From positions 14,785-44,067 of the forward strand of contig CAZBND010000025.1 of the NCBI GenBank assembly GCA_964493415.1: a stretch of 29,283 nt of DNA, read 5' to 3'. The translations under genes and the position numbers were made by a program. Numbering within the stretch: position 1 is the stretch's first letter; each line of letters begins with the position of its first letter. The notes below the pieces were generated by a model, which saw only the letters and a program-made list of their open reading frames with translations, was not told where the DNA came from and made no database searches. Below, in pieces: positions 8,110-26,720 of the stretch. Source of the DNA: an uncultured Planctomycetota bacterium (GTDB lineage: Bacteria > Planctomycetota > DG-23 > CAZBND01).

Positions 8110-8144
8110 TCGACTTACGGACAGACCGCGCAGTCCCTAGGCGG

Positions 8145-8444: not shown

Positions 8445-8544
8445 TGTCGCCTCCTTATGTTTTGTTCACGCCGATCTTGGTAACGTCTGGTAACACGTAG
8501 GCGGGCGGACTCTTGCGCTTTCACCTCCTTACATAGGGGTTCTT

Positions 8545-9090: not shown

Positions 9091-9092
9091 GG

Positions 9093-13857: not shown

Positions 13858-14163
13858 CTACCCGGATCCTTCGCCGAGTAGTTCGTCCGCCAGCTTTCTC
13901 CATCCGGCCAGCGTTTTGGGGTTCATGCGGTAGTGGACGTAGTACCCGCGCTTGTCGGGGATGACGAGGTCTGCCGCGCGCAGCACTCGCAGGTGCTGCG
14001 AGACCGCCGCGGGGGTGACCCCCAGTCGCGCCGCGAGCGCGTTGACGCACATCGGCTTGTTCCGGATCAGTTGGACTATCCGGAGGCGTGTCGGCGCTGA
14101 AAGGATCTTGAAGATTCGCGCTGCCTTTTCGGGATCGGTCACTTGCGCGCCTTGATTAAGCAT
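13858..14163 (-). CDS. ArsR/SmtB-family transcriptional regulator (no CVC metalloid site)
   Basis: Winged HTH: APTRLRIVQLIRNKPMCVNALAARLGVTPAAVSQHLRVLRAADLV. It is divergent from the ars operon and heads the long minus-strand gene array. A 10-bp palindrome GCATATATGC overlaps its start codon. Confidence 0.85.
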   Translation of the reverse strand: MLNQGAQVTDPEKAARIFKILSAPTRLRIVQLIRNKPMCVNALAARLGVTPAAVSQHLRVLRAADLVIPDKRGYYVHYRMNPKTLAGWRKLADELLGEGSG

Positions 14164-14328: not shown

Positions 14329-14694
14329 ATGCGGGAACTTCTGCTCGTAACGAAAGCCTTGGCCGATGAAACGCGCCTTCGGGCTCTTCGCGCGCTGCGC
14401 GGGCGCGAGCTCTGCGTCTGCCAGATCGTGGAGCTTCTGGGGCTTGCGCCCTCAACGGTCTCGAAACACCTGTGGCTCCTCAGACAAGCACGCCTGATTG
14501 AAGGGCGCAAAGAGGGCCGCTGGATGTTCTACCGCCTCGCGGGGCGCGACGCTCCGCAAGTCGCTCAAGAAGCGCTCGCCTGGGTGAATCGGTCGCTCGC
14601 CGCTTCACCGAAGATCAAAGAGGACGGCAAGCGGCTCAAGCAGATACTCAAAATGGACCCGGAGGAAATATGCAGGCGACAAAGCAAAAGCTGA
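14329..14694 (+). CDS. arsR: ArsR-family arsenite-responsive repressor
   Basis: The HTH carries the metalloid-binding ELCVCQIVELLGLAPSTVSKHL (CVC) motif. It is the first gene of arsR-arsC-acr3-arsM. Confidence 0.9.
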   Translation: MRELLLVTKALADETRLRALRALRGRELCVCQIVELLGLAPSTVSKHLWLLRQARLIEGRKEGRWMFYRLAGRDAPQVAQEALAWVNRSLAASPKIKEDGKRLKQILKMDPEEICRRQSKS

Positions 14695-15119
14695 AGCTCC
14701 TTTTTCTTTGCACGGGCAATTCCTGCCGCAGCCAGATGGCTGAAGGCTGGGCTCGGCAACTGAAAGGGGACCTCATAGAATCCTACTCCGCGGGCATCGA
14801 GGCCCGCGGCCTGGACCCGCGCGCGGTAAAGGCTATGGCCGAAGTCGGCGTGGATATCTCCGGGCAAAGGTCGAAGCCCGTCCGGGAAGTCATGGGAATT
14901 GACTTCGACTACGTTATCACTGTCTGCGGGCATGCGCGCGAGAGCTGCCCCATCTTCCCCGGCAAGGCCAAGATAGTTCACCACGGTTTCGACGATCCTC
15001 CCCAACTTGCCGCCGGCGCGAGGACGGAGGAGGAAGCGCTGACCCACTACCGGCGCGTGCGCGACGAAATCCGCGCATACGTCGAAACGCTGCCTGAATC
15101 GCTCGAGAAAGAAAGGTAA
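14670..15119 (+). CDS. arsC: Arsenate reductase, LMW-PTP/thioredoxin-coupled type
   Basis: P-loop [17 protein letters not shown] (CX5R) is present, with downstream Cys ([10 protein letters not shown]) for the thioredoxin-coupled disulfide cascade. It overlaps the arsR 3' end by 25 nt. Confidence 0.9.
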
Positions 15120-15126
15120 ATTTCAT

Positions 15127-16326
15127 ATGGCAACGGAAGGTTTGGCGGAGAGACAGGCAAAGGGCCTGAACGTTTTCGAGAAGTACCTGACCGCCTGGGT
15201 CATCCTGTGCATCATCGGCGGCATTGTGCTGGGGAAGCTCGCCCCGGGGTTCGCGAAGGCCCTCGACGGCATGGCCATCTATGTAGGCGAAGCTCCCGTG
15301 GTCTCGATCCCCATCGCCGTCTGCCTTTTCTTCATGATGTACCCGATAATGGTGAAGATAGACTTCGCCGAGGTCATCAAGGCCGGCAAGAGCGGGAAGC
15401 CCGTGGGACTGACCCTGTTCGTCAATTGGGCCATCAAGCCTTTCACCATGTATGCCATAGCGTTGCTGTTCCTGGGTACGCTGTTCCACGGCCTCATCGG
15501 TCCCGACGCTGTCGACTACGTTAAGATGCCGCTGGGCCTGGACCTGCCCGTCGGCGCGACCCACGGGGCCGGCACGGTCATTATGCACGAAGGCGTCAAG
15601 GTGCTCCAGGTTCCGCTGTGGCGAAGCTATCTGGCCGGCTGCATTCTCTTGGGCATAGCCCCTTGCACGGCCATGGTGCTGGTGTGGGGCTATCTCGCCA
15701 GGGGGAATGACGGCCTGACGCTGGTCATGGTGGCGATCAACTCGCTGACGATGCTTCTGCTCTACGGCGTGTTGGGGGGCTTTCTCTTGGGAGTCGGGCG
15801 GCTGCCGGTTCCCTGGCAGGCCTTGCTGCTGTCGATTTCGATTTACGTCGCCCTGCCGCTGGTGGCGGGCTACGTCTCGCGCAGGTGGCTCATCGCCGCC
15901 AAGGGCCGCGCATGGTTCGAGCAGAAGTTCCTGCACGTCCTGACCCCGATCACGATCATCGCTCTGCTGATCACGTTGGTGCTGCTGTTCAGTTTCAAGG
16001 GCGAAGTGATCCTGGGCAATCCGCTGACGATTCTCTGGATCGCCATCCCTCTGTTCATCCAAACGAACCTCATCTTCTGGTTGGGCTACGGGCTGGCGAG
16101 GCTGCTGAAGCTGCGATACGCGGATGCCGCCCCAGCGGCCATGATCGGCGCGTCGAACCACTTCGAGGTGGCCATCGCGACGGCTACCATGCTGTTTGGA
16201 CTATCGTCGGGCGCCGCTCTGGCCACAGTGGTTGGCGTGCTGATCGAGGTGCCCGTGATGCTCATGCTGGTGAAGATATGCCTTAGAACACAACGTTGGT
16301 TCAAGACTGCGGAGGCCACGACATGA
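15127..16326 (+). CDS. acr3: ACR3-family arsenite efflux permease
   Basis: The N-terminus [24 protein letters not shown] and 10-TM architecture are typical of Acr3/ArsB (BART superfamily). Confidence 0.9.
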
Positions 16327-17138
16327 AAAGCCGCAAAGACGCGCATGAGATCGTAAGGAAGGCATATGGAGACATCGCTAAGAGACAAACGCCATGCTGC
16401 CAGCCGAGGGCCGCTTGCTGCGGGACCGGCTCTACTCCAAGTGCGATGCCGGAGGCGGAGCTGGGGCTTTCGTGCGGAGATCCGGTGGGACTCGCCGAGA
16501 TACGCGAAGGGGAGGTCGTCGTGGACCTTGGGAGCGGAGGGGGAAAGGACGTGTTCATGGCGGCGGAGAAGACCGGGCCGACAGGACAAGCGATCGGGAT
16601 CGACATGACCCGGGAGATGCTGGAACTCGCGAAAAGGAACGCGGTGAAATTCCGCCAGCGCACGGGGCTTGGTAATGTGGAGTTCCGCGAGGGGAAGATC
16701 GAGGAGCTGCCGCTGAAGGATGCTTCGGCTGACCTGGTGATCTCCAACTGTGTGATAAACCTCTCGCCTGATAAGCCGCGCGTCTTCAGAGAGATTTTCA
16801 GGGTGCTCAAGCCCGGCGGGAGGATGGTCGTGAGCGACGTGGTCTTAAATGAGAAGCTGCCTGAAGAACTGCTGAAGGATGAAAGGCTTTACGCGGGCTG
16901 TGTCGCGGGGGCTTTGGTGCGCGAGGATTACCTGAAGGCGATTCGCGACGCGGGATTCGGGAAAGTCGAGGTGTTGGCTGACAGGAATATGTCCCTGGAT
17001 TGGGCGGACCCCATAGCCGAGACGTGGCGCGACGTGCTCGAAGGCGCCGTGGCGAGCATCACGGTGAGGGCGACCAAGAAAGGCCCGGGCCGGAGGAACG
17101 CGGAGATTTGTTCGCAGCGGCGCAGCGTCGCTTCCTAA
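16323..17138 (+). CDS. arsM: Arsenite S-adenosylmethionine methyltransferase
   Basis: ATG 16323 overlaps the acr3 stop as ATGA ([16 protein letters not shown]...). Paired Cys occur in the N-terminal region ([10 protein letters not shown]), SAM motif I is [11 protein letters not shown], and the conserved downstream Cys is present ([11 protein letters not shown]). Confidence 0.85.
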
Positions 17139-17265: not shown

Positions 17266-18300
17266 TTACTTCCCGGCGGGGCATAGTGGTGACGCGCTGA
17301 CGATCCAGCGGCTCGCGTCGACTCTCGTCAGGCCCCGTACGCCTGGGAGCAATTGAGCACTCGAATCGGGGCCTCTGACTGCGACATCCAACCGCGTCGT
17401 GCCGCGTTTTGCATGGGCGACGAGAAGCCGTGCGGCGAGAGGGACATCATCTGTCGGCGAGGGCCCTCGGCAGAGCGCGGTCGGCCCGGGCGAATTCTGC
17501 GGGATAAGCAGCGCATCGTCGGGTCTGACGAGGCTCTCAAGCACGGCGTTCTCCTCTTCGTTTCTGCCCACGACCACCTTGGCTCCGCTGTCCAGCCGGA
17601 AATGACGTCCCAGCTTGAGAAGGCCTATATCGCTCATCTTGCATGAAGGGTCGTAGTCGAACAGGTCCCGCAGGCGGACCGAGAATTCTCTGTCAGTCAG
17701 GAGACAACCTCCGGCGGGGCACAAGTAATCCCTTATGCCGAGCTTGTTTGCCAACGCGATCTGGGGCTTCCGCGAGCGGCCCTGGATGGCTTTGAGCCGC
17801 GCTGTGTCCAGGAGCCCCTTTTCCTCCGGAAGCGATTCCGGAAGAAGCTTACTTGAGAGCGGACGCACAATCAGTCCGGCCAGTCCTGACTCGTGCTCAA
17901 TGATTTCCATCGCGTGGCGGCGCTGGGACATGGGGCGCTCGCCGAGCACTTCCCCCGTTGCGATGAAGTCGGCGCCCGTTTCCTCCATGCGACGCCGGGC
18001 TTGAGAGAACATGTGAATGCGGCAGTCCAGACATGGGTTCATGCCGCGGCCTCGGCCGAATCTTGGATGCTTAACGACCTGGAGGTATTCCTCGCCGCAG
18101 GCGAGTATCTGAACAGGGATGCCCAACTGTTCGGCCGCTTTTCGGGCTGCCGGGCATCCCAGCCCCTTGGGCGTACAGCGGCAGAAGGGGGAGACGAAGT
18201 TGAGCGCCTCAATTTGAATTCCCATGTCGAGAAGCAGCTTGCCGGCGAGGGTGCTGTCAAGGCCTCCGGAAAGCAATAGAATCGCCTTTGGCATGTTCAC
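17266..18300 (-). CDS. PP-loop ATP pyrophosphatase, ThiI-like tRNA/sulfur-transferase domain without a THUMP domain (putative Fe-S or Cys-dependent thiolation enzyme)
   Basis: The N-terminal PP-loop is AILLLSGGLDSTLA. A ThiI-type motif ATGEVLGERPMSQRRHAMEIIEHESGLAGLIVRPLSS matches ThiI VTGEALGQVSSQT...LRPL. Cys clusters are FCRCTPKGLGC and NPCLDC. It is divergent from the Rrf2/sulfur cluster. Confidence 0.55.
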   Translation of the reverse strand: MNMPKAILLLSGGLDSTLAGKLLLDMGIQIEALNFVSPFCRCTPKGLGCPAARKAAEQLGIPVQILACGEEYLQVVKHPRFGRGRGMNPCLDCRIHMFSQARRRMEETGADFIATGEVLGERPMSQRRHAMEIIEHESGLAGLIVRPLSSKLLPESLPEEKGLLDTARLKAIQGRSRKPQIALANKLGIRDYLCPAGGCLLTDREFSVRLRDLFDYDPSCKMSDIGLLKLGRHFRLDSGAKVVVGRNEEENAVLESLVRPDDALLIPQNSPGPTALCRGPSPTDDVPLAARLLVAHAKRGTTRLDVAVRGPDSSAQLLPGVRGLTRVDASRWIVSASPLCPAGK

Positions 18301-18521
18301 TGTGTCCGTTTCTACGTGTTGCCGGGTGGTTTAGGGGGTCTTTGCCGGCCTCGGCCCGGCTGGAGAGTTTCGCCCTGCTCTGGGGGTGTTGCTCGACCTT
18401 TTCATTGTAATCGCCGGCCGGAGAAAAGCAACTAGGAGCGTAAGGTATGATGCGCGAAAGACTTGCGGCAGGTGGTCGTGGGATTTGCGGGGGAGGGGAG
18501 AGAAAAAATCGGGTGGCCTAT

Positions 18522-18550
18522 TGACAGGTAGGGTGAGGCGGCTATAATTC
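18522..18550 (+). promoter_or_regulatory. Near-consensus sigma70 promoter (TTGACA, about 17 nt, TATAAT) for the Rrf2-led sulfur cluster
   Basis: The sequence reads cctaTTGACAggtagggtgaggcggcTATAATtccag, about 27 nt upstream of the Rrf2 start (18577). Coordinates are approximate to +/-2. Confidence 0.55.
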
Positions 18551-18576: not shown

Positions 18577-18993
18577 ATGCTTCTCGAGAACGCCAGAATG
18601 AATCATGCGTGCGTCGCGCTATTGGAGCTCTCCCAGCACTGGGAGACGGGGGAACTGGTGAAGACCAAGGACATATCTCGGGAGAATTCGCTGCCGCACA
18701 AGTATCTGACGCAGATACTGCTTCAGCTTAGGAGTGCCGGGCTTGTTGTGAGTGTCCGTGGATCGCGCGGGGGATTCAGGCTCGCGCGCCATCCTCGGGA
18801 GATAACGGTGTGGGATGTTTTTCAAGCGGTAGAGAGCACAGGCCGCGAACGCAGGGAGGGAAAGGCCGGGCTGCGGGAGGGGCAGCGGCTACTGGCGAGC
18901 GTTTGGAGAGAGGCGGCCGGCGGGGTGAGGGAGACGCTGGAGAAGTACACGTTCGAGGATTTGCGCACGGCGGCGCAGGTGTACCACATATGA
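18577..18993 (+). CDS. Rrf2-family transcriptional regulator (CymR/IscR-like)
   Basis: The N-terminal wHTH is RMNHACVALLELSQH...SRENSLPHKYLTQILLQLRSAGLVVSVRGSRGGFRLAR. It is the first gene of the co-directional sulfur assimilation cluster. Confidence 0.88.
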   Translation: MLLENARMNHACVALLELSQHWETGELVKTKDISRENSLPHKYLTQILLQLRSAGLVVSVRGSRGGFRLARHPREITVWDVFQAVESTGRERREGKAGLREGQRLLASVWREAAGGVRETLEKYTFEDLRTAAQVYHI

Positions 18994-19058: not shown

Positions 19059-19772
19059 GTGACACGGATCGGATTTGAGGATAGGGCGAGCCTTCAGTCC
19101 CTGAGCGCGGAAGGGCTCTTGACATGGGCGCTGGATGAGTTCGGTGACGAGGTCTCGCTGGCGTGCAGCTTTGGCGCGGAGGATGTGGTGCTGGTCGACA
19201 TGCTGTGCAGGCTCACCTCGAAGCCCAGAGTGTTTGCCATTGACACCGGCAGGCTTCACGAGGCGACGTACGAGGTCATGGAGCGAATCAGGGAGAAATA
19301 TGGTCTCGACCTCGACATCTACTTTCCGTCGCGAGGGGAAGTGGAACGGCTGGTCAGCGAGAAGGGTCTTTATTCATTCCGCACCAGCTTGGAGGGACGG
19401 AAAGAATGCTGTCGGATAAGGAAGGTGGAACCACTGGGGCGGGCGCTGAAAGGGCTCAAGGCGTGGATAACGGGGCTCAGACGCGACCAGAGCATTACCA
19501 GAACGGAGGTTGCGAAGGTGGAAGTCGACGACGCGCACGGGGGAATCGTTAAGCTCAATCCCCTTGCCGACTGGAGTTCTGAGGCGGTGTGGGAGTACAT
19601 CCGGGCCAATGACGTTCCCTACAACGCTCTGCACGACGTCGGCTATCCGAGCATCGGCTGCGAGCCGTGCACACGGGCTGTGAAGCCCGGGGAGCGTCCG
19701 AGAGCCGGCCGCTGGTGGTGGGAGAATCCGGTTGATAAAGAATGTGGTCTTCATGTTGAGGAAAGGAAGTGA
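19059..19772 (+). CDS. cysH: Adenylyl-sulfate (APS) reductase, thioredoxin-dependent, Fe-S type (PAPS reductase family)
   Basis: It has the PAPS_reduct fold (SFGAEDVVLVDML), an Fe-S cluster Cys pair KECCRIRK plus SIGCEPCT, and the C-terminal catalytic ECGLH. The CC..CxxC motif indicates APS rather than PAPS specificity. GTG start with RBS GGAGG. Confidence 0.88.
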   Translation: MTRIGFEDRASLQSLSAEGLLTWALDEFGDEVSLACSFGAEDVVLVDMLCRLTSKPRVFAIDTGRLHEATYEVMERIREKYGLDLDIYFPSRGEVERLVSEKGLYSFRTSLEGRKECCRIRKVEPLGRALKGLKAWITGLRRDQSITRTEVAKVEVDDAHGGIVKLNPLADWSSEAVWEYIRANDVPYNALHDVGYPSIGCEPCTRAVKPGERPRAGRWWWENPVDKECGLHVEERK

Positions 19773-19774
19773 CC

Positions 19775-21013
19775 ATGCCCTCTTTAGTCTTGCCGCACGG
19801 CGGGAAGCTGATCGACCGAACAGCCGAAGGGAAAGAGCGCGCGGAATTGCTTGACAGGTTCGCGGGGTACCCCGCGGTTGAAATAGACCGGCTTGCCGCT
19901 TCGGACATCGAGCTCTTGGCCACTGGAGCGTTCAGCCCGCTTAAAGGGTTCATGGGGCGGGATGATTATGAGTCGGTGCTGGCGTCCAACCGGTTGGCTT
20001 CGGGGCTGCCGTGGACCATACCTGTAACGCTATCGGTGTCGCGCCGAGCAGCCAAAAGAGTGAGCTCCGCCGGCGATGTGGCCCTTATTTGCCCGGAAAA
20101 TGAAACGAGGGCGGTTCTTCATCTCGAGGACGTGTTCGAACACCCCAAAGAGAGGGAATCGGTACAAGTGTACGGTACCAGCGATTTCGCGCATCCGGGT
20201 GTAGCGCGGCTTTACGGGCGGGGAGAAGTTCTGCTGGGCGGGAGCATAACCGTGGTTTCGCTTCCGAAACACGGCACTCTCCTCGAGTACCGTCACGCGC
20301 CTGCAGAAACGCGGGCGGCTTTTTCGGAGCGGGGATGGAAGCGTATTGCCGGGTTCCAGACGAGGAACCCAATCCACCGCGCGCACGAGTACATCCAAAA
20401 GTGCGCTCTTGAGATAGTGGACGGGCTTTTCCTTCAGCCGCTGGTCGGGGACACCAAAGCTGACGACATACCGGCGGAGGTGAGCATTCGAAGCTACGAG
20501 GTCGTCACGAGCAGGTATTATCCCAAGGATCGCGTCTTCCTGGGGGCGTTTCCGGGATACATGAGATATGCCGGGCCGCGGGAAGCGGTTTTTCACGCCT
20601 TGGTGCGGAAGAACTACGGCTGCAGTCACTTCATCGTGGGGAGAGATCATGCGGGTGTCGGTGATTACTACGGACCGTTTGATGCGCACAAGATATTCGA
20701 AAGCTTTGGCCCGGACGAGATCGGGATAACGCCGTTGTTTTTTGACCACACATTCTATTGCCGCGATTGCGAGGGGATGTCCTCCCCCAAGACGTGCCCG
20801 CATTCCTTGGGGTCGAGATGCTTGCTCTCAGGGAAAAGGGTGCGGGAACTGCTGGCTGAGGGGAAGACGCCTCCCACGGAGCACACGAGGCCCGAGGTAG
20901 CGGAGATTCTGGTGGAAGCGTACCGGAAGGCTAACGGGGCGTCCAATTCGGAGCCGGAGGGGGAGCGTACGCCTGCGGGAAGCTCGTGCGCAAAGGTGAA
21001 GAAAGGTGGCTGA
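19775..21013 (+). CDS. sat: Sulfate adenylyltransferase (ATP sulfurylase, homo-oligomeric type)
   Basis: Motifs GFQTRNPIHRAHE and FIVGRDHAGVG are present, along with an N-terminal PUA-like domain (LVLPHGGKLIDR). ATG 19775 follows RBS GAGGAAAGGAAG. An alternative GTG 19769 overlaps the cysH stop as GTGA. Confidence 0.9.
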   Translation: MPSLVLPHGGKLIDRTAEGKERAELLDRFAGYPAVEIDRLAASDIELLATGAFSPLKGFMGRDDYESVLASNRLASGLPWTIPVTLSVSRRAAKRVSSAGDVALICPENETRAVLHLEDVFEHPKERESVQVYGTSDFAHPGVARLYGRGEVLLGGSITVVSLPKHGTLLEYRHAPAETRAAFSERGWKRIAGFQTRNPIHRAHEYIQKCALEIVDGLFLQPLVGDTKADDIPAEVSIRSYEVVTSRYYPKDRVFLGAFPGYMRYAGPREAVFHALVRKNYGCSHFIVGRDHAGVGDYYGPFDAHKIFESFGPDEIGITPLFFDHTFYCRDCEGMSSPKTCPHSLGSRCLLSGKRVRELLAEGKTPPTEHTRPEVAEILVEAYRKANGASNSEPEGERTPAGSSCAKVKKGG

Positions 21014-21291
21014 TGAGGATGTCGGATGACCTTCGGCCGGTGCGCTCGGCTGACCTCACGCGGGAAGTCTGCCCGATGACCTTCGTGAAGTTGAAGCTCC
21101 ACTTGGAGCTGATTCAGCCCGGGGAGGTTCTCGAAGTGTTGTTGAAGGAAGGCGAGCACATGCGGGACGTGCCTCGGTCGGTGAAAGAAGAGGGGCATAA
21201 GATCGTGGCGGTGGAACCGGTCGGCGAGAACTACAGAGTGTTTGTCCAAAAGGCGGTCTGCGGGGGTTCGGGGGAGGTAAGCAAGCAATGA
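21010..21291 (+). CDS. TusA/SirA-like sulfur-carrier or sulfurtransferase family protein
   Basis: It is about 93 aa with ADLTREVCPMTFVKLKLHLELIQPGEVLEVL. This is a CPxP-like motif with the second Pro replaced (CPMT) in a two-layer alpha/beta fold. ATG 21010 overlaps the sat stop as ATGA, and its stop overlaps the next start as ATGA. Confidence 0.65.
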   Translation: MMRMSDDLRPVRSADLTREVCPMTFVKLKLHLELIQPGEVLEVLLKEGEHMRDVPRSVKEEGHKIVAVEPVGENYRVFVQKAVCGGSGEVSKQ

Positions 21292-22577
21292 ATTTCGTGA
21301 AGGGACTCAAATGCAGAGAAGAAGGATGCGGCGGGAGGTATCCCAAAGAGCCGTTGCACATATGCGAGCACTGCTTCGGGAAATTGGAGGTTGACTACGA
21401 CTACGAGGGGATAGCGAGGGGGATATCGAGGGATGTGATTGAACAGCGCCCGGCGACGATGTGGCGGTATCGTGAGCTGCTTCCGATAGACGGCGATCCG
21501 ACTGCGGGCCTCACGACAGGATTCACCCCGCTGTTCCGAGCCGAGAGGCTGGCCCGTGCGCTGGAACACGACGAGGTATACATCAAAAACGATGCGGTGA
21601 ATTCCCCGACGCTTTCTTTTAAGGATCGAGTGGTCTCCGTGGCGTTGTCGAAGGCGAAGGAGTTCGGATTCGACACCGTAGCGTGCGCGACGACCGGCAA
21701 CCTTGGGAATAGCCTTGCAGCGCAGTCCGTCAAGGCAGGTCTTCGGTGTTTCATATTCATGCCGGCGGATCTCGAGCAGGGGAAGATCGTCGCGACGTCG
21801 GTGTACGGTGTGAACGTAATCGGGATATCGGGGAACTACGACAACGTGAATCGACTGTGCACGGAAATAGCGGATCGCTGCGGGTGGGGGTTCGTGAACA
21901 TAAATTTGAGGCCGTACTATGCCGAGGGGTCCAAGACGTACGGATTTGAGATAGTGGAGCAGCTTGGCTGGCGCGCGCCGAAGCACGTGGTTGTGCCGAT
22001 GGCGGGTGGGTCTCTGGTTACCAAGGTGCACAAGGCGATAAAGGAGTGCCGAGAAGTCGGGCTGATAGAGGGTGCCGATACGCGCATACACGGGGCCCAG
22101 GCATCGGGGTGCAATCCCATTTCCGCGGCGATCAAGGCCGGCGAGGAGATCATTACTCCCGTCAGACCCGACACCATCGCTCATTCGATAGCCATCGGCA
22201 ATCCGGCGGACGGGTACTATGCAGTGGAGACGATTCGCGATAGCGGGGGGTGGGCCGAGGACGTTACCGATGGGGAGATTGTGGAGGGGATCAGGCTGCT
22301 CGCTGAAACAGAGGGTGTATTCACTGAGACGGCGGGAGGGGTCACAGTGGCGGTCACGAGAAAGCTCATCGAGCAGGGCCACATACCACGGGACGAGTCG
22401 GTGGTGATCTCGATCACGGGGAACGGGCTCAAGACCCAGGAGGCGGTGCTCGGGAAAGTCAGGGAGAGGGTGATCATAGAGGCGCGGTACGAAGACTTTG
22501 AGGCGGCGCTCGCGTCACTGGAGGCTCGCGATCAAGGAGCCGCCCTGTCCGCAAAGGAGGAAGCCAAGTGCCTGTGA
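21288..22577 (+). CDS. Threonine-synthase-like PLP-dependent enzyme (fold type II) with an N-terminal zinc ribbon; candidate O-phosphohomoserine-dependent sulfhydrylase
   Basis: It has an N-terminal C-x4-C...C-x2-C (CREEGCGG...ICEHCFG) and the PLP lysine motif SPTLSFKDRVVS. The Gly-rich loop and C-terminal domain are typical of ThrC. It is translationally coupled upstream (TusA-like) and downstream (sulfur carrier, GTGA overlap). Confidence 0.8.
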   Translation: MNFVKGLKCREEGCGGRYPKEPLHICEHCFGKLEVDYDYEGIARGISRDVIEQRPATMWRYRELLPIDGDPTAGLTTGFTPLFRAERLARALEHDEVYIKNDAVNSPTLSFKDRVVSVALSKAKEFGFDTVACATTGNLGNSLAAQSVKAGLRCFIFMPADLEQGKIVATSVYGVNVIGISGNYDNVNRLCTEIADRCGWGFVNINLRPYYAEGSKTYGFEIVEQLGWRAPKHVVVPMAGGSLVTKVHKAIKECREVGLIEGADTRIHGAQASGCNPISAAIKAGEEIITPVRPDTIAHSIAIGNPADGYYAVETIRDSGGWAEDVTDGEIVEGIRLLAETEGVFTETAGGVTVAVTRKLIEQGHIPRDESVVISITGNGLKTQEAVLGKVRERVIIEARYEDFEAALASLEARDQGAALSAKEEAKCL

Positions 22578-23071
22578 CAGTTAGAACATCCTCTGTTTTG
22601 AGGGGTCTCCTTCAAGGGAACCTCGAGGTGGAGTCTGAAGGGAAGACCGTGCGCGAGGTGCTCACTTCGCTGGGCGTGCTTGAGCGTATTTGTGACCCGT
22701 CGGGGGGAATCAGGCGGCATTTCAACATTCACGTGAATGACGGCGACGACATAAGACTTGGACGGGGGCTCGAAACGAAGGTGAAATCCGGAGACGTTGT
22801 CACCATCCTGTCGGCGATTTCAGGCGGAGCGGAATATCGGCGCAAGGTGTGGTTGACCTTTCCAAAGGAACAGGTCGCTCGCCCTCTTGTCTGGGAAGTA
22901 GGCCAACGATTCGAAGTGGTCACCAACATTCGCCAGGCGAGCGTTTCCAGCGAAATCGGCATAGTGGGGCTGGAGATTACGGGAGAACGGGAGGAAGTGA
23001 TGCGCGCGGTCGATTTTCTTGAAGAACAGGGGGTCTCTGTAGAGCCGATCGAGCTGGACGTGGTGGAGTGA
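22574..23071 (+). CDS. ThiS/MoaD-like sulfur-carrier protein with internal Gly-Gly (about residues 84-85) fused to a C-terminal NIL domain
   Basis: The N-terminal beta-grasp ends ...NIHVNDGDDIRLGRGLETKVKSGDVVTILSAISGG (compare ThiS ...HIVQDGDQILLFQVIAGG). It is followed by about 80 aa that match the NIL / MetN-C2-like domain (LTFPKEQVARPLVWEVGQRFEVVTNIRQASVSSEIGIVGLEITGEREEVMRAVDFLEEQGVSVEPIE). GTG 22574 overlaps the upstream stop as GTGA. Confidence 0.72.
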   Translation: MTVRTSSVLRGLLQGNLEVESEGKTVREVLTSLGVLERICDPSGGIRRHFNIHVNDGDDIRLGRGLETKVKSGDVVTILSAISGGAEYRRKVWLTFPKEQVARPLVWEVGQRFEVVTNIRQASVSSEIGIVGLEITGEREEVMRAVDFLEEQGVSVEPIELDVVE

Positions 23072-23074
23072 GGC

Positions 23075-23920
23075 GTGAAAGAATTAGGGTTCAACGAAAG
23101 CCAGATTAACAGATACTCCCGGCACATCCTCCTCAAGGATGTCGGGCTGGAGGGGCAGAAGAAACTGTCAAGAGCCGGCGTATTTGTGGTGGGGGCGGGG
23201 GGGCTTGGCTCGCCGGCGCTCTACTACCTTGCGGCGGCCGGGATCGGCAGGATAGGCGTGGTCGATTCGGACGTTGTGGACCTGTCTAACCTGCAAAGGC
23301 AAGTGCTTTTTGGGGTGGACGATATCGGCAAGAGCAAGGCCCGGGCTGCCGCTGACGCACTTGCCCGTCAGAACCCTGACTGCAATGTACTGGCCGCGGA
23401 AGAGCGGCTCACTTCCGGGAACATAGAAAGCCTGTGCGATGGCTACGACGTGGTCTTGGACGGTAGCGACAACTTCCCGACGCGGTTTCTGGTGAACGAC
23501 TTCTGTTGGCTGCGAGGAATCCCGCTGGTTTCCGCCGCGGTCGTTCAGTTCGACGGGCAATTGCTGACGGTGGTGCCGGAGGAGAAGACTCCTTGTTACC
23601 GGTGTCTTGTCGGGGAGCCGCCGGAGCCGGGGACAATCCCAAGTTGCCAAGAGGCGGGGGTGCTTGGTGCGGTTGCGGGCGTTGTCGGTACGCTGCAGGC
23701 CGCTGAGGCGCTTAAGCTCATCATCGGCATCGGCAAGCTCCTTACGAATAGCCTCCTCGTTTACAGCGCGTTGGAGGGCAAATTCAACCTCTTCCGTCGA
23801 TCCAGCGACCCGGATTGTCCGCTGTGTGGGACAAGCCCGCGTATCACGGGTCTCAAGGACTATGAGCAGGTGTGTTCCGCGCGAGAAACCGTGGCGCGGA
23901 GTGGGAGGTTGAGTACGTGA
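23075..23920 (+). CDS. MoeB/ThiF/HesA-family E1-like adenylyltransferase (no rhodanese domain)
   Basis: The nucleotide-binding motif is VVGAGGLGSPALYYLAAAGIGRIGVVDSDVVDLSNLQRQ. Zinc Cys pairs CYRC...CPLC and a conserved Cys in PSCQEAGVLG are present. GTG start 3 nt after the carrier stop. Confidence 0.9.
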   Translation: MKELGFNESQINRYSRHILLKDVGLEGQKKLSRAGVFVVGAGGLGSPALYYLAAAGIGRIGVVDSDVVDLSNLQRQVLFGVDDIGKSKARAAADALARQNPDCNVLAAEERLTSGNIESLCDGYDVVLDGSDNFPTRFLVNDFCWLRGIPLVSAAVVQFDGQLLTVVPEEKTPCYRCLVGEPPEPGTIPSCQEAGVLGAVAGVVGTLQAAEALKLIIGIGKLLTNSLLVYSALEGKFNLFRRSSDPDCPLCGTSPRITGLKDYEQVCSARETVARSGRLST

Positions 23921-24429
23921 AGCTTCTTGCGGATACTGCCAACTCCATAATTGAAGAGGCGAAGAAAGATGACTGTGAATGCTGCGGGATTCTTTTGGCC
24001 GACCCGCTCGCGCCGAGTGTGGGGCGTTGGGTCTATCCAGCGCCCAACCGAGCAACGAGGAGGAAGCAATCGCGGTTTGTCCTCGACCCCGCGACTCACC
24101 TAAGGGTGGTGGAGTGGGAGGCAGAAGGACGGGTGGTAGTGGTCGGGTACTATCATTCGCATCCGACGTCGCCGGCTGAGCCTTCGCCGGATGATATCGA
24201 CAGGGCACTTTCGGGGGTCACGTACCTCATCGCGGGGTTGGAGGGGAGAACTTGGACTTTACGTGCTTGGCGGAAGGTCGGTGAGGAATTCGTTGAAGAA
24301 CCCATAGAGTTGGAGATGGGCGAATGGCACAGACCGTTGCAGAAAAGCTGGGCAGCAGGCCGGCGCTGCGCCGGTTCAGCGATGCGAGAGAACTCATACC
24401 CAGTCCCGCCAACCCGACCCCGTTGGTGA
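23917..24429 (+). CDS. JAMM/MPN+ (Mov34) zinc metalloprotease (Mec+/HcyD/QbsD-like)
   Basis: The JAMM motif is E...GYYHSHPTSPAEPSPDDI (HxHx7Sx2D) and the N-terminus is VKLLADTANSIIEEAKKDDCECCGILL. The likely start GTG 23917 overlaps the E1 stop as GTGA. Its 3' end overlaps the next gene by about 106 nt. Confidence 0.82.
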   Translation: MKLLADTANSIIEEAKKDDCECCGILLADPLAPSVGRWVYPAPNRATRRKQSRFVLDPATHLRVVEWEAEGRVVVVGYYHSHPTSPAEPSPDDIDRALSGVTYLIAGLEGRTWTLRAWRKVGEEFVEEPIELEMGEWHRPLQKSWAAGRRCAGSAMRENSYPVPPTRPRW

Positions 24430-25316
24430 GACTCAACAGAGTGCTCGCGGGCTTGGGAATGGACGTGTTCTTGAAGCTCGAGTGGTTCAGCCCGTTCGGC
24501 TCTACAAAGGATCGTGCGGCGAAGTATCTGCTGGATGGGATGGCGAAGAGGGGGGAATTGGAGGGGAGGGAAATAGTCGAGCCTACATCGGGGAATACGG
24601 GCATAGCCCTGGCGGCGCTGGGGGGAATCATGGGCAAGAAAGTGACTGTTACGGTGCCAAGCGGAGTGCCGGAGGAGAAGCAGATCATATTGAGAATGCT
24701 CGGCGCCGAGGTCTGGCCTACGCCGGACGATCTATGTCCGGTGGAGCATCCCAAGGACGGGGCGATCGCATTGGCGCATTCGTTCGTCAGAGGGGAATCG
24801 GGGCGGGGGCGCTACGCGATGCCCAACCAGTACGAGAACCCGGACAACGTCCGTGCACACTACGAGACGACGGGGCCGGAAATCTGGCGGCAGACCGAAG
24901 GCCAGGTTAGGTACTTCTTTGCCGGCGTGGGAACTTGCGGCACTATCACGGGGGTGGGCCGGTTCCTTAAGGAGAAAGATGCTCGGATACGGATAATCGG
25001 AATCGAACCCCAGAAGGGGCACAGACTGCCGGGCCTGAAGAACCTGGAGGAGTCCAAGGAGCCGGGCATCCTGGAGCGAGACCTGATAGACAGGATCGTC
25101 CGAGTGGATGACGGTCCGGCTTACGAAATGACGAGGCGGCTGTTCAGAGAAGAAGGACTGATAGTTGGGCCGTCAACCGGTGCCATTGTTCAAGGGATTG
25201 CGGAGTGCTCGCTGCACGGGGAAGGCGTGGCGGTAGGCATTTCGCCCGATGGCGGTTTTAAGTACGCGAGCTATTTCGCCGATGTCCTCGGTGACGAAGG
25301 CAAGCCTCAGGTGTGA
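24324..25316 (+). CDS. Cysteine synthase family PLP enzyme (CysK/CysM-like; candidate thiocarboxylate-dependent O-phosphoserine or O-acetylserine sulfhydrylase)
   Basis: TPLVRLNRV is followed by the PLP lysine motif SPFGSTKDRAAKYLL, the Gly-rich loop EPTSGNTGIALA, and GVGTCGTITG. ATG 24324 is preceded by GGAG. Confidence 0.88.
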   Translation: MAQTVAEKLGSRPALRRFSDARELIPSPANPTPLVRLNRVLAGLGMDVFLKLEWFSPFGSTKDRAAKYLLDGMAKRGELEGREIVEPTSGNTGIALAALGGIMGKKVTVTVPSGVPEEKQIILRMLGAEVWPTPDDLCPVEHPKDGAIALAHSFVRGESGRGRYAMPNQYENPDNVRAHYETTGPEIWRQTEGQVRYFFAGVGTCGTITGVGRFLKEKDARIRIIGIEPQKGHRLPGLKNLEESKEPGILERDLIDRIVRVDDGPAYEMTRRLFREEGLIVGPSTGAIVQGIAECSLHGEGVAVGISPDGGFKYASYFADVLGDEGKPQV

Positions 25317-26230
25317 AGGGGGCATCTATGAGTTCAGAGAGTGAACCGGTTGCGTACGACATAGCCGAGCTCAAAGCCGGAGGACTGATGAAGCAGAGCG
25401 AAAAGGATTTGTTCAGCGTTCGGCTGCGTGTCGTCGGCGGCTACATGAAGGCGGACCAGCTTGAGAAGCTTGCCGAAATCAGTCGGAAGTACGGTAGGGG
25501 CCATATTCACCTCACGACGCGCCAGGGAGCCGAGATACCGTACATCAGTTTCCATGACGTTGAGGATGTTCGATGCGAGCTGGCGGAGGTGGGCCTTGAA
25601 TTCGGCGCGTGCGGCACCAGGGTAAGGACGATTACAGCCTGTCAGGGGCTCTCCTGTTACAACGGCCTGATAGACGCCCAGGCGTTGGCGGCGAAGCTGG
25701 ACGAGAAGTTCTTTGGCAAAGGAGGATACCCGCACAAGTTCAAGATAGGCATTGCGGGATGCCCGAACGCGTGTACAAAGCCCCACGAGAACGACCTCGG
25801 CATAATGGGTAACATTCTGAAGGTGTTCGTCCCGGACCGTTGCACTCTATGCGGTTTGTGCGTCAAGGCCTGCCCGATCGAGGGAGCGCTGGAGATCATT
25901 GAAGGGGAACTCCAGTACCATCAGTCCGCGTGCGTGCGATGCGGAGCCTGCATAGCATCGTGCCCGACTGACGCGTGGGTCAGGGAAGCGGTTTCGTACG
26001 CAGTGTTCGCTGGCGGCAAGATGGGGAAGAATCCGCGCTTCGCGGACAGGCTTCCCTTTGACATAACCGACGAGAACAGCCTGGTGGTTCTCATCGACCG
26101 CGTTTTGGAGTGGTACAAGCGGAACGGGGTGAGGGGCGAACGCTTTGGAACAACCATAGATCGCGTTGGACTGGGAGCGCTCGTATCAGACCTGCAACAG
26201 GACCTTGGCGACGGGGGGCATAATGTTTGA
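25313..26230 (+). CDS. Small siroheme-[4Fe-4S] sulfite reductase with an inserted 2x[4Fe-4S] ferredoxin domain (AsrC / small assimilatory Sir / Dsr-like-protein type)
   Basis: The siroheme-cluster coupling motifs are TACQGLSCYNG (C-x5-C) and IAGCPNAC (C-x3-C). The ferredoxin motifs are CTLCGLCVKACP and CVRCGACIASCP. A GTG start overlaps the cysM-like stop as GTGA. No AsrA/AsrB partners are present. Confidence 0.78.
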   Translation: MKGASMSSESEPVAYDIAELKAGGLMKQSEKDLFSVRLRVVGGYMKADQLEKLAEISRKYGRGHIHLTTRQGAEIPYISFHDVEDVRCELAEVGLEFGACGTRVRTITACQGLSCYNGLIDAQALAAKLDEKFFGKGGYPHKFKIGIAGCPNACTKPHENDLGIMGNILKVFVPDRCTLCGLCVKACPIEGALEIIEGELQYHQSACVRCGACIASCPTDAWVREAVSYAVFAGGKMGKNPRFADRLPFDITDENSLVVLIDRVLEWYKRNGVRGERFGTTIDRVGLGALVSDLQQDLGDGGHNV

Positions 26231-26720
26231 TCTGTCAACGCTTGAGTCCAAAGTCCAAGAGTACTTCGGAGATGACGTAAGGCGGATGACACATACGCGG
26301 GAGGTTCTGGGCTACGCGCAGCGGATCCTTCGAGAGGTGGCGGCTAATGAAGAGGTCGTCCTGGCGGCAGCGCTGCTGCATGATATCGGGATACCGGAAG
26401 CGGAGCGGAGGCATGGGAGTGCCGCCGGGCGCTATCAGGAACTCGAAGGGCCCCCAATCGCGGAACGGATGCTCCGTGAACTGGGGGCCTCTCCGGAAAG
26501 TACGGATGCAGTCTGTGAACTGGTGGCGTGTCACCATACGCCCGGCAAGGTCGACTCTGCGGAGTTCGACGTTCTTTGGGATGCGGACTGGCTGGTCAAC
26601 TTGGCTGATGAGTTCAACGGAGCTTCCAGAGAAGGGCTTAAGGTGGCGATCGAGAGGGTCTTCCGAACTGAGACCGGACGGCGGCTGGCGGAAGGAGTCT
26701 ATCTTGACGGGGGCGGATAG
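26223..26720 (+). CDS. HD-domain metal-dependent phosphohydrolase
   Basis: The HD motif AAALLHDIG and downstream His (ACHHTP, D...D) are present. ATG at about 26223 overlaps the sulfite reductase stop, indicating translational coupling. Substrate unknown. Confidence 0.72.
   Translation: MFDLSTLESKVQEYFGDDVRRMTHTREVLGYAQRILREVAANEEVVLAAALLHDIGIPEAERRHGSAAGRYQELEGPPIAERMLRELGASPESTDAVCELVACHHTPGKVDSAEFDVLWDADWLVNLADEFNGASREGLKVAIERVFRTETGRRLAEGVYLDGGG

What the first reader, a model, noticed from the sequence alone, without database searches (positions are those of the whole stretch)
21288..22577. ThrC-like PLP enzyme with an N-terminal zinc ribbon, translationally coupled to the sulfur carrier: candidate O-phosphohomoserine sulfhydrylase
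This threonine-synthase paralog has the SFKDR PLP-lysine motif plus an extra N-terminal Cys4 ribbon. Its stop overlaps the start of the carrier gene as GTGA, and the start of its gene overlaps the stop of the TusA-like gene as ATGA. Threonine synthase acts on O-phospho-L-homoserine. A paralog performing gamma-replacement with a protein thiocarboxylate would give homocysteine directly. The co-presence of a CysM-like enzyme downstream suggests that one carrier pool feeds two outputs, Cys via the CysM-like enzyme and Hcy/Met via the ThrC-like enzyme. Alternatively, one of the two enzymes makes a different thio-metabolite.
Basis: partly seen in the sequence, partly recalled or inferred. Interest (0 to 1): 0.7.

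Follow-up and report, generated by a model that had tools for sequence, protein, structure and literature searches.

The report
MetM-type homocysteine synthase, mislabelled threonine synthase
This gene most likely encodes not threonine synthase but a relative of the recently described enzyme MetM, which makes the methionine precursor homocysteine from O-phosphohomoserine with sulfur delivered on a small ubiquitin-like carrier protein; here the carrier is made fused to a methionine-transporter-type "NIL" domain, which has not been described.

Summary
ORF 21288-22577 (429 aa) is a ThrC-fold PLP enzyme with the SFKDR lysine (K112) and an N-terminal Cys4 ribbon (C9, C14, C26, C29). It overlaps the TusA-like gene (ATGA) and the carrier gene.

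- The protein falls in a clade of 83 sequences separate from canonical ThrC (36-37% identity).
- All 83 replace residues that are invariant in canonical ThrC: T88L, S155N, N157R, R160Y, N188G/S (Thermus numbering). All but one keep the four ribbon cysteines.
- 71 of 76 relatives have a ThiS/CysO-like gene just downstream.
- A SAM-I riboswitch motif precedes the gene in 38 of 80 species. Rfam confirmed 11 of 11 tested, plus an actinobacterial ortholog (50% identity) whose genome also has a canonical thrC.

The window has no riboswitch; an Rrf2 regulator heads an operon running from sulfate activation to the carrier system.

One feature appears undescribed. The carrier is a ThiS-GG-NIL proprotein that would need cleavage, probably by the operon's JAMM protease. 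Free NIL proteins accompany the system in other phyla.

Not testable here: enzyme activity, a second thrC in this genome, and direct comparison with S. albulus MetM.

The parts
18521..18548 (+). Promoter-like site, TTGACA-16-TATAAT (12/12 consensus), upstream of the Rrf2 gene. Probable operon promoter.
   Evidence: This is a consensus match only.
18577..18993 (+). Rrf2-family transcription regulator, first gene of the cluster.
   Evidence: Pfam PF02082, E 7e-28. Rrf2 genes also precede relatives L006, L010 and L011.
19059..19772 (+). APS/PAPS reductase (CysH).
   Evidence: PF01507. TIGR02055 APS_reductase scores 277.8 bits, above its cutoff.
19769..21013 (+). Sulfate adenylyltransferase (Sat).
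   Evidence: PF01747 plus PF14306. NF003166 scores 519 bits.
21013..21291 (+). TusA/SirA-like sulfur-transfer protein with the CPM cysteine motif. Start is ATG 21013 or 21019. Its stop overlaps the ThrC-like start (ATGA).
   Evidence: PF01206, E 8.5e-18. Gene calls give 90 aa. Sequence read.
21288..22577 (+). The finding: a MetM-type ThrC paralog, 429 aa. Zn ribbon Cys 9, 14, 26, 29 (21312-21374). PLP Lys112 (21621-21623). Clade signature V115, L139, N206, R208, Y211, S215, A239, G240, L243.
22568..22828 (+). CysO/MetO-like sulfur-carrier domain (ThiS fold), residues 1-87, ending ...SAISGG.
   Evidence: PF02597. M. tuberculosis CysO (3dwg_C) matches at E 1.4e-10, and the alignment ends at GG87. 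The AIAGG motif is invariant in relatives.
22829..23071 (+). NIL domain fused in frame after the carrier's GG (residues 88-167). Presumed to be released by cleavage.
   Evidence: PF09383, E 3.8e-12. The only PDB sequence relatives are MetN C-terminal domains. At least 120 protein clusters share the 167-aa architecture. In the AF2 model, pLDDT falls below 50 only at residues 85-87 and the C-terminal end.
23075..23920 (+). E1-like adenylyltransferase (ThiF/MoeB), 281 aa, with no rhodanese domain.
   Evidence: PF00899, E 4.7e-81. Best NCBIfam matches are MoeB and UbaA-type models.
23917..24429 (+). JAMM/JAB metalloprotease with intact E...HSHP...PSxxD motif. Likely start is GTG 23917, overlapping the E1 stop as GTGA. 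A 36-aa C-terminal extension overlaps the cysM-like start by 105 nt.
   Evidence: PF14464, E 2.9e-15. Alignment with homologs. Sequence read. Gene callers did not call it.
24324..25316 (+). CysK/CysM-family PLP enzyme. Divergent: below the NCBIfam cysM and cysK cutoffs.
   Evidence: PF00291. TIGR01138 scores 246.6, below its 394.2 cutoff. Best PDB match is Salmonella/E. coli CysM.
25313..26230 (+). Small sulfite/nitrite-reductase-type protein with an inserted 2x[4Fe-4S] ferredoxin domain. Gene callers start it at 25328.
   Evidence: PF01077, PF03460 and Fer4 families. Gene calls.
26223..26720 (+). HD-domain phosphohydrolase, last gene of the cluster. Role unknown.
   Evidence: PF01966, E 1.3e-11. 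Gene calls.

Best explanation
The gene encodes a MetM-type homocysteine synthase. It is a fold-type II PLP enzyme derived from threonine synthase. It likely binds O-phospho-L-homoserine and eliminates phosphate to give the PLP-bound vinylglycine-type intermediate. Instead of adding water at C-beta as ThrC does, it likely lets the C-terminal thiocarboxylate of the adjacent CysO/MetO-like carrier attack C-gamma. The carrier-homocysteine adduct would then be resolved to release homocysteine, which goes on to methionine.

The rest of the operon supplies the sulfur:
- Sat converts sulfate to APS.
- CysH converts APS to sulfite.
- The small sulfite reductase converts sulfite to sulfide.
- The E1-like ThiF/MoeB adenylates the carrier's Gly-Gly end.
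- Sulfide, or a TusA persulfide, converts the adenylate to the thiocarboxylate.

The carrier is translated as a ThiS-GG-NIL proprotein, so its Gly-Gly end must first be exposed. The operon's JAMM protease probably does this, and probably also hydrolyses the carrier-amino-acid adduct.

Shown here: the anatomy, clade membership, the changed signature residues, conserved pairing with carrier genes, and SAM-riboswitch control of orthologs. Inferred: substrate, product, use of the carrier by this enzyme, JAMM cleavage, and the order of sulfur transfer.
For: 1. Clade placement. The protein is 49-50% identical over its full length, ribbon included, to a Nonomuraea ThrC-like protein. That gene is preceded by a SAM-I riboswitch (68.7 bits) and followed by a 91-aa ThiS-like protein ending in GG. 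This is the arrangement reported for S. albulus metM/metO. Identity to canonical ThrCs is only 30-37%, and the NJ tree separates the two groups.

2. Active-site signature. Six canonical ThrCs keep T88, S155, N157, R160, N188 and N191 (Thermus numbering). All 83 clade members, the window and Nonomuraea included, have L, N (plus a 1-aa insertion), R, Y, G/S and mostly L at those positions.

3. Carrier link. A ThiS-like gene lies within 1.2 kb downstream in 71 of 76 species loci, and its AIAGG end is invariant. In the window the two genes overlap. The carrier domain matches M. tuberculosis CysO.

4. Methionine link. A SAM-I riboswitch core lies upstream of the gene in 38 of 80 species loci. Rfam confirmed 11 of 11 tested, at 74.7-93.2 bits against a gathering score of 44.4. 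Those proteins are 62-70% identical to the window protein.

5. NIL association. NIL is present in 34 of 62 loci. Its only PDB sequence relatives are MetN C-terminal domains. NIL/ferredoxin proteins are genetically required in the DUF39 homocysteine pathway.

6. Coexistence with thrC. The Nonomuraea genome also has a canonical ThrC, 64.8% identical to the M. tuberculosis enzyme, at a distant site. M. aeruginosa likewise has a separate canonical ThrC.

7. Operon type. The logic matches the ThiS/JAB/E1(no rhodanese)/SirA sulfate-assimilation class '4e' of Iyer et al. 2006.
Against: - No activity data exist for this protein or any close relative.
- The S. albulus MetM sequence could not be obtained, so membership rests on a proxy ortholog and on identities quoted in papers.
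- The window has no SAM riboswitch.
- The protein passes NCBIfam's TIGR00260 threonine-synthase cutoff (305 vs 167 bits).
- A cyanobacterial homolog, 51.6% identical to MetM, was reported to make threonine from OPHS and to deaminate threonine in vitro. That study saw no evidence for MetM function in vivo (PMC12172450).
- The roles I assign to T88, S155, R160 and N188 (phosphate binding and product-assisted catalysis) come from my memory of Omi 2003 and Murakawa 2011. I could not check them in the held library.
- It is unknown whether this genome has thrB, a canonical thrC, or other homocysteine routes.
Confidence: 0.8

Rival explanations
1. It is a working threonine synthase, either housekeeping or a bifunctional ThrC/threonine deaminase. 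Its position next to the sulfur-carrier genes would then be incidental or regulatory.
For: - TIGR00260 thrC scores 305 bits, above its cutoff.
- The best PDB matches by sequence and fold are ThrCs.
- The M. aeruginosa homolog showed OPHS-to-threonine and threonine-to-ketobutyrate activity in vitro.
- No other thrC is in the 29-kb window.
Against: - Canonical ThrC residues T88, S155, N157, R160 and N188 are all replaced, in all 83 clade members.
- There is no hom/thrB synteny of the kind seen in Listeria.
- SAM riboswitches, not threonine-related control, precede the orthologs.
- Nonomuraea and Microcystis carry a separate canonical ThrC.
- Water addition or ketobutyrate release is the side reaction expected when the thiocarboxylate nucleophile is missing from an assay (inference).
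Confidence: 0.08
2. It is a carrier-dependent PLP enzyme with a different substrate or product. Examples are O-phosphoserine to cysteine, or another thio-amino acid or metabolite. The CysM-like enzyme would then do the homocysteine-related or some other step.
For: - Two PLP enzymes share the operon with a single carrier gene.
- CysM-like genes lie inside SAM-riboswitch-led operons in L053 and L058, so the assignment of outputs to enzymes is not fixed by context alone.
- Cysteate synthase shows that ThrC paralogs can change substrate (TIGR03844 appears).
Against: - In anammox bacteria and Nonomuraea the SAM riboswitch controls only the ThrC-like/ThiS pair, with no CysM-like gene. The pair alone therefore suffices for the methionine-linked function.
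- The cysteate synthase model scores 59.7 bits against a cutoff of 324.9.
- MetM biochemistry as reported uses OPHS.
Confidence: 0.07
3. It is an O-phosphohomoserine sulfhydrylase that uses free sulfide directly. The carrier/E1/JAMM set would serve only the CysM-like enzyme or another pathway.
For: - A sulfite reductase in the operon would supply free sulfide.
- Other sulfhydrylases can use either donor: MetY uses free sulfide in most bacteria and a protein thiocarboxylate in W. succinogenes (from my own knowledge; searches show only that this literature exists).
Against: - The ThrC-like/ThiS gene pair is kept in 71 of 76 loci, often with no E1, JAMM or CysM nearby.
- The two genes overlap in the window.
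- The published MetM uses MetO thiocarboxylate.
Confidence: 0.05

Closest known systems
MetM/MetO pathway of Streptomyces albulus (Hasebe et al. 2024, Appl Environ Microbiol 90:e01247-24; included in GapMind 2026)
   Same: - A ThrC-homologous PLP enzyme is paired with a small GG-ended sulfur carrier.
- The carrier is activated by an E1.
- A JAMM (Mec-type) protease takes part.
- The family is usually misannotated as threonine synthase.
- A proxy actinobacterial ortholog shares 50% identity, the Zn ribbon and every signature residue.
   Different: - The carrier is a ThiS-GG-NIL fusion rather than a free ~90-aa protein.
- The E1 has no rhodanese domain, and a TusA protein is present instead. MoeZ, a rhodanese-fused E1, is the enzyme named for S. 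albulus.
- The gene sits in a full sulfate-to-sulfide operon together with a CysM-like enzyme.
- An Rrf2 regulator replaces the SAM riboswitch.
- Identity to S. albulus MetM itself was not measured.
HcyS/HcyF/HcyD/MetY thiocarboxylate-dependent methionine pathway of Wolinella succinogenes (Krishnamoorthy and Begley 2011); operon class 4e of Iyer, Burroughs and Aravind 2006
   Same: - The operon combines ThiS/MoaD-like carrier, JAB, an E1 without rhodanese, SirA/TusA, ATP sulfurylase, (P)APS reductase and sulfite reductase.
- The carrier carries extra residues after GG that JAB removes (from my own knowledge of the 2011 paper).
   Different: - The sulfhydrylase there is MetY, a fold-type I enzyme acting on O-acetylhomoserine. 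Here it is a fold-type II ThrC paralog, presumably acting on O-phosphohomoserine.
- The extension after GG is one residue there and an 80-aa folded NIL domain here.
CysO/CysM/Mec+ cysteine pathway of Mycobacterium tuberculosis
   Same: - The carrier domain's best PDB match is CysO (3dwg_C, E 1.4e-10).
- A JAMM protease and a CysK/M-family PLP enzyme are in the same operon.
   Different: - The focal enzyme is ThrC-like, not CysM-like.
- The window's CysM-like protein is closest to enteric CysM, not to the mycobacterial enzyme, in the PDB ranking.
- There is no rhodanese-E1 (MoeZ).
Canonical threonine synthase (TIGR00260; PDB 1uim, 2zsj, 6cgq, 2d1f)
   Same: - Same fold. Foldseek gives E 1e-25 and target-normalised TM-score 0.83.
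- The PLP lysine motif SFKDR and the TGN loop are shared.
   Different: - 36-37% identity.
- An extra N-terminal Cys4 ribbon.
- T88L, S155N with a 1-aa insertion, N157R, R160Y, Q164S, N188G and N191L.
- No hom/thrB neighbours.
MoaX, the fused MoaD-MoaE of M. tuberculosis (PMC4326299)
   Same: A sulfur carrier is translated fused to a C-terminal partner. By that paper's title, cleavage is necessary for activity. That the cut frees the carrier's Gly-Gly end is my own knowledge.
   Different: The partner there is the catalytic MoaE subunit. Here it is a NIL ligand-binding-type domain, and a dedicated JAMM protease is encoded in the operon.

Membership tests
MetM (thiocarboxylate-dependent homocysteine synthase) | ThrC-homologous fold-type II PLP enzyme with a catalytic lysine | tested here: met
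   PALP matches at E 6.8e-72. K112 lies in SFKDR. The predicted structure has the ThrC fold.
MetM (thiocarboxylate-dependent homocysteine synthase) | Gene paired with a MetO-type (ThiS/CysO-like, GG-ended) sulfur carrier | tested here: met
   The carrier gene overlaps the 3' end of the ThrC-like gene. The pairing is kept in 71 of 76 related loci. The carrier domain matches CysO. The GG is internal, because the carrier is a proprotein.
MetM (thiocarboxylate-dependent homocysteine synthase) | Sequence orthology to the characterised S. albulus MetM | not testable with these tools
The proxy is 50% identity and a shared signature with the Nonomuraea riboswitch-metM-metO-type locus. A paper quotes a cyanobacterial homolog at 51.6% identity to MetM.
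MetM (thiocarboxylate-dependent homocysteine synthase) | Methionine/SAM-responsive control (SAM riboswitch upstream, as reported for S. albulus) | tested here: inconclusive
   No riboswitch is in the window at Rfam gathering scores; an Rrf2 regulator is there instead. Orthologs at 62-70% identity do have one: 38 of 80 loci by motif and 11 of 11 by Rfam.
MetM (thiocarboxylate-dependent homocysteine synthase) | Catalyses O-phosphohomoserine + carrier-COSH to homocysteine | not testable with these tools
   Needs biochemistry.
MetM (thiocarboxylate-dependent homocysteine synthase) | Coexists with a separate canonical thrC | not testable with these tools
   Only 29 kb of this genome is available, and the source species is not among the GTDB representatives (best hit 76% identity). 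Coexistence is true for Nonomuraea and is reported for Microcystis.
Canonical threonine synthase (ThrC) | Passes the curated family HMM (TIGR00260) | tested here: met
   305.1 bits against a cutoff of 167.1. SAM-riboswitch-controlled clade members pass it too (270-292 bits), so the model does not discriminate.
Canonical threonine synthase (ThrC) | Conserved substrate-phosphate site residues T88, S155, R160, N188 (T. thermophilus numbering; roles are from my own knowledge of Omi 2003 and Murakawa 2011) | tested here: not met
   The window has L139, N206, Y211 and G240 at these positions. Six canonical ThrCs are invariant there, and 83 of 83 clade members are changed.
Canonical threonine synthase (ThrC) | Threonine-pathway gene context (hom, thrB) | tested here: not met
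   The neighbours are sulfur-assimilation and carrier genes. For contrast, Listeria has hom-thrC-thrB.
Cysteate synthase (ThrC paralog of methanogens) | Passes TIGR03844 | tested here: not met
   59.7 bits against a cutoff of 324.9.
ThiS/JAB/E1 sulfate-assimilation operons (class 4e, Iyer et al. 2006; W. succinogenes Hcy system) | Carrier + JAB + E1 without rhodanese + SirA/TusA + sulfate-reduction genes in one cluster | tested here: met
   All are present at 19059-26230. The class is described.
ThiS/JAB/E1 sulfate-assimilation operons (class 4e, Iyer et al. 2006; W. succinogenes Hcy system) | O-acetylhomoserine sulfhydrylase (MetY) as the sulfur-accepting enzyme | tested here: not met
   No fold-type I sulfhydrylase is in the window. 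ThrC-like and CysM-like enzymes take its place.

The most novel reading that the evidence does not exclude
The NIL domain may be a third, so far undescribed component of the MetM/MetO-type pathway. In this lineage the carrier is translated as a ThiS-GG-NIL proprotein. The operon's JAMM protease would have to cut it, much as ubiquitin-fusion precursors are processed, releasing carrier and NIL in equal amounts. In other phyla the same NIL module is a free protein of about 80 aa encoded beside the carrier.

NIL is the MetN C-terminal domain, which by my own knowledge binds methionine there. It is also required, as NIL/ferredoxin, in the unrelated DUF39 homocysteine route. It may therefore bind methionine or homocysteine. 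Its role could be feedback control of carrier maturation or use, or handing over substrate or product. That would link two non-canonical homocysteine pathways through one shared module.
Probability: 0.35. Interest if true: 0.65.

Novelty: new member of a known kind. Interest (0 to 1): 0.42.

Why it matters
- Annotation. Every clade member tested passes NCBI's threonine-synthase model. Genomes across anammox Planctomycetota, Armatimonadota, Thermodesulfobacteriota, Binatia, Elusimicrobia, Omnitrophota and Actinomycetota therefore get a spurious thrC and an apparent gap in methionine synthesis. The residue signature L/N/R/Y/G at Thermus positions 88, 155, 157, 160 and 188, plus the Cys4 ribbon, gives a simple sequence test to separate the two.
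- Distribution. The SAM riboswitch data extend the 2024 Streptomyces discovery to many uncultured lineages. They also provide independent, regulation-based support for the methionine role.
- Open question. The carrier-NIL proprotein and the free NIL proteins point to an uncharacterised component that can be tested directly.

Tried and rejected
- Reference sequence and papers. I tried to read Hasebe 2024 (PMC11497804), Murakawa 2011 (PMC3024773), Petronikolou 2019 (PMC7050208) and Krishnamoorthy and Begley 2011 (PMC3089676). None is held. The S. albulus MetM sequence and the ThrC residue roles could therefore not be checked at source. A full-text search for the ThrC residue names found nothing relevant.
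- Source genome. The question of another thrC in this genome stays open.
- Plasmid collection. The search gave one useful record, a Nonomuraea chromosome filed as a plasmid. The haloarchaeal and Azospirillum 'thrC' hits (32-35% identity) have no carrier neighbour and lack the signature. I treated them as other ThrC-like subfamilies.
- CysM comparison. A search for a mycobacterial-type CysM using the window's CysM-like protein returned only Deinococcus CysM at 41% identity. The specificity of the CysM-like enzyme is left open.
- Cysteate synthase. Rejected on score.
- NIL as ferredoxin fusion. I checked whether the free NIL proteins are NIL-ferredoxin fusions like MA1822. They are NIL-only, and most have no cysteine.
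- Structure. Prediction and Foldseek added only that the fold is ThrC-like and that no MetM-type structure has been solved.
Full report
**1. Observation**

The ORF at 21288-22577 (+) encodes 429 aa. It has a full PALP domain at residues 77-378, E 6.8e-72. The PLP-lysine motif is LSFKDRV, with K112 at 21621-21623. The N-terminus carries C9-x4-C14 and C26-x2-C29.

The start ATG overlaps the TusA-like stop as ATGA at 21288-21291, with a GGAGG 10 nt upstream.

At the 3' end a GTGA exists at 22574-22577. The carrier more likely starts at GTG 22568:
- An AAGGAGG lies 7 nt upstream.
- The N-terminus MPVTV aligns with residue 1 of M. tuberculosis CysO.
- Gene calls on five independent contigs give 167 aa.

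The overlap is therefore 10 nt.

**2. The operon**

A perfect sigma-70 consensus lies at 18521-18548. From there the + strand carries, tightly packed or overlapping:
- Rrf2 regulator
- APS/PAPS reductase
- ATP sulfurylase
- TusA
- the ThrC-like enzyme
- a ThiS+NIL fusion protein
- a ThiF/MoeB E1 without a rhodanese domain
- a JAMM protease
- a CysK/M-family enzyme
- a small sulfite-reductase-type protein with a ferredoxin insert
- an HD protein

The identical operon is on five metagenome contigs. A 78%-identical relative has the same core. No other thrC, hom or thrB is in the 29-kb window.

**3. What the enzyme is**

Curated models call it threonine synthase: TIGR00260 scores 305 bits against a cutoff of 167. 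The best solved structures, by sequence and by predicted fold, are canonical ThrCs. Those alignments begin only at residue ~55 and reach 34-37% identity.

Published work describes a ThrC homolog, MetM. With the sulfur carrier MetO, the E1 MoeZ and the protease Mec, it converts O-phosphohomoserine to homocysteine in Streptomyces albulus, and it 'is often misannotated' as threonine synthase (GapMind 2026 preprint). The S. albulus metM has an upstream SAM riboswitch and an adjacent metO (PMC12172450). I could not obtain the original paper or the sequence.

*Proxy ortholog.* The plasmid collection happens to hold the Nonomuraea gerenzanensis chromosome. There a SAM-I riboswitch (RF00162, 68.7 bits) precedes a ThrC-like gene with the same CxxC...CxxC ribbon. 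A 91-aa ThiS-like protein ending AVAGG follows it. That protein is 50% identical to the window protein over 409 residues. The same genome has a canonical ThrC, 64.8% identical to the M. tuberculosis enzyme, about 9 Mb away.

*Wider sample.* The genome-contig scan returned 80 species-level loci at 58-76% identity. They come from anammox Planctomycetota (Brocadia, Scalindua, Kuenenia), Armatimonadota, Thermodesulfobacteriota, Binatia, Omnitrophota, Elusimicrobia and others. No locus is close enough to name the source organism.

*Residue signature.* I aligned these sequences with six canonical ThrCs (B. subtilis, A. aeolicus, T. thermophilus, M. tuberculosis, A. thaliana, L. monocytogenes). In T. 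thermophilus numbering, the canonical enzymes keep G64, T88, S155, N157, R160, Q164, G187, N188 and N191. All 83 clade members, the window and Nonomuraea included, have V, L, N (plus a one-residue insertion), R, Y, S/A, A, G/S and, at position 191, L in 77, I in 5 and Q in Nonomuraea.

From my own knowledge (Omi 2003; Murakawa 2011), T88, S155, R160 and N188 hold the substrate phosphate. Retention of that phosphate drives water addition to give threonine. I could not verify these roles in the held library.

*Ribbon and tree.* The four ribbon cysteines are kept in 82-83 of 83 members, so the ribbon is a clade trait. An NJ tree puts the window protein inside this clade, with Nonomuraea at its base, apart from canonical ThrCs.

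**4. Links to the carrier and to methionine**

- A ThiS-like gene lies within 1.2 kb downstream in 71 of 76 loci that have enough flank. Its C-terminal motif AIAGG is invariant.
- A SAM-I riboswitch core motif sits 150-300 nt upstream of the ThrC-like gene in 38 of 80 loci. In the Binatia loci it sits upstream of a ThiF gene that precedes the ThrC-like gene.
- Rfam confirmed full-length SAM riboswitches in all 11 loci tested, at 74.7-93.2 bits against a gathering score of 44.4.
- In the anammox and Nonomuraea loci the riboswitch controls just the ThrC-like/ThiS pair. That ties the pair itself to methionine supply.
- The window's own subclade (L006, L008-L012) has no riboswitch. It embeds the pair in a sulfate-assimilation operon, and in the window, L006, L010 and L011 an Rrf2 gene lies upstream.

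**5. The carrier and NIL**

Residues 1-87 of the 167-aa protein match CysO of M. tuberculosis (3dwg_C, E 1.4e-10), and the alignment ends exactly at GG87. Residues 88-167 are a NIL domain (PF09383). Its only PDB sequence relatives are the C-terminal domains of the methionine importer MetN (3dhx, E 0.0067), with the N-I motif aligned.

At least 120 protein clusters share this 167-aa architecture. They are named 'NIL domain-containing protein' or 'molybdopterin converting factor small subunit'. In their alignment the GG is followed by 3-4 variable residues and then the conserved NIL core.

The AlphaFold model has two well-folded domains. pLDDT falls below 50 only at residues 85-87 and the C-terminal end, and pTM is 0.51. 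That is what a flexible, exposed junction would give.

Across the 80 loci the carrier ends in one of these ways:
- GG followed directly by the stop codon.
- GG plus a tail of 1-20 residues.
- GG fused to NIL (11 loci).
- GG fused to the E1 (4 loci).

In many loci the carrier gene is followed or accompanied by a free NIL-only protein of 78-86 aa, usually without cysteines. NIL is present in 34 of 62 loci with at least 3 kb of downstream sequence.

NIL/ferredoxin proteins are genetically required in the unrelated DUF39 homocysteine pathway (PMC5764234). I found no paper that mentions a NIL domain together with sulfur carriers. A precedent for a fused carrier that must be cleaved is M. tuberculosis MoaX (PMC4326299).

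**6. Mechanism, with its status**

*Shown:* the parts, their conservation, the changed active-site residues, and the SAM-riboswitch control of orthologs.

*Inferred:*
- Sulfate is converted to APS, then sulfite, then sulfide by Sat, CysH and the small reductase.
- The JAMM protease frees GG87.
- The E1 adenylates GG87.
- Sulfide or a TusA persulfide makes the thiocarboxylate. Iyer et al. 2006 noted that rhodanese-less E1s in such operons always come with SirA/TusA.
- The ThrC-like enzyme eliminates phosphate from O-phosphohomoserine and accepts the thiocarboxylate at C-gamma.
- The JAMM protease releases homocysteine from the adduct, by analogy with Mec/CysO and HcyD/HcyS (my own knowledge).
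- The CysM-like enzyme may draw on the same carrier for cysteine. However, CysM-like genes also sit inside SAM-riboswitch operons in L053 and L058, so its output is uncertain.

**7. Evidence against, and rivals**

The main counter-evidence is a study of the Microcystis homolog, which is 51.6% identical to MetM. It reported threonine synthase and threonine deaminase activities in vitro, and it saw no sign of MetM function in vivo under threonine stress. Those assays lacked the thiocarboxylated carrier. Water addition or ketobutyrate release is the expected side reaction in that case (inference).

The window has no riboswitch. The reference MetM was not compared directly. The rest of the genome is unknown.

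My estimates are 0.80 for MetM-type function, 0.08 for a working ThrC, 0.07 for another substrate or product, and 0.05 for sulfide-only use.

**8. Novelty**

What appears undescribed:
- the carrier-NIL proprotein and the free NIL partners;
- the breadth of the family, with its SAM-riboswitch control, in uncultured phyla;
- a simple residue signature that separates MetM-type proteins from true ThrC, which current curated models do not do.

Noticed in passing
window 22829-23071; loci L050, L052, L053, L055-L063, L067-L072, L074-L080, L082, L083, L085, L087: NIL-only proteins of about 78-86 aa, nearly all without cysteines and none with a ferredoxin domain, are encoded beside ThrC-like/ThiS genes in several phyla. 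L075 has a tandem NIL-NIL protein. In the window's clade the same module is fused after the carrier's GG.
   Followed up: partly
L055, L067, L068, L085 (carrier ORFs of 357-364 aa): In these loci the carrier is fused through its AIAGG end directly to the ThiF-type E1 (…AIAGGTELTEQQIERYSRQIILPEIGG…). This is another proprotein form that would need cleavage.
   Followed up: no
window 23917-24429: The JAMM gene was not called by the gene finders on the identical contigs. Compared with homologs it has a 36-aa C-terminal extension that reads 105 nt into the cysM-like gene in another frame. Its probable GTG start overlaps the E1 stop as GTGA.
   Followed up: partly
L053 4162-11079; L058 7000-11669: CysM-like genes lie inside operons headed by SAM riboswitches, together with ThrC-like, ThiS, NIL and ThiF genes. 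The CysK/M-family partner may therefore serve methionine metabolism rather than, or as well as, cysteine synthesis.
   Followed up: no
window 18521-18548: A perfect sigma-70 consensus promoter (TTGACA, 16 nt, TATAAT) lies 29 nt upstream of the Rrf2 start. It is the only 12/12 match in the 9-kb region scanned.
   Followed up: no
window ~14329-17138 (+): This is an arsenic-resistance-type cluster: ArsR, a low-molecular-weight phosphatase (ArsC-type), an ACR3/SBF-like permease, and a SAM methyltransferase with an N-terminal Cys-rich stretch (ArsM-like). A second ArsR is divergent at 13858-14163. The two middle genes are seen in the gene calls of the identical contig L001.
   Followed up: no
window 17266-18300 (-): A PP-loop ATPase (ThiI / tRNA methyltransferase HUP-type) fused to an NFACT-R_2 RNA-binding domain is divergently placed next to the sulfur operon. 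It may be a tRNA thiolation enzyme.
   Followed up: no
window 2179-9581 (-): An RND efflux set (AcrB-type pump, HlyD-type adaptor, outer-membrane factor) sits with a heavy-metal-resistance periplasmic protein and a zf-HC2 anti-sigma factor.
   Followed up: no
L007, L019, L058 (proteins scanned): SAM-riboswitch-controlled MetM-clade proteins all exceed NCBIfam's TIGR00260 'threonine synthase' equivalog cutoff (270-292 bits vs 167). L058 also exceeds NF006050. No MetM-named model appeared among the matches listed.
   Followed up: yes
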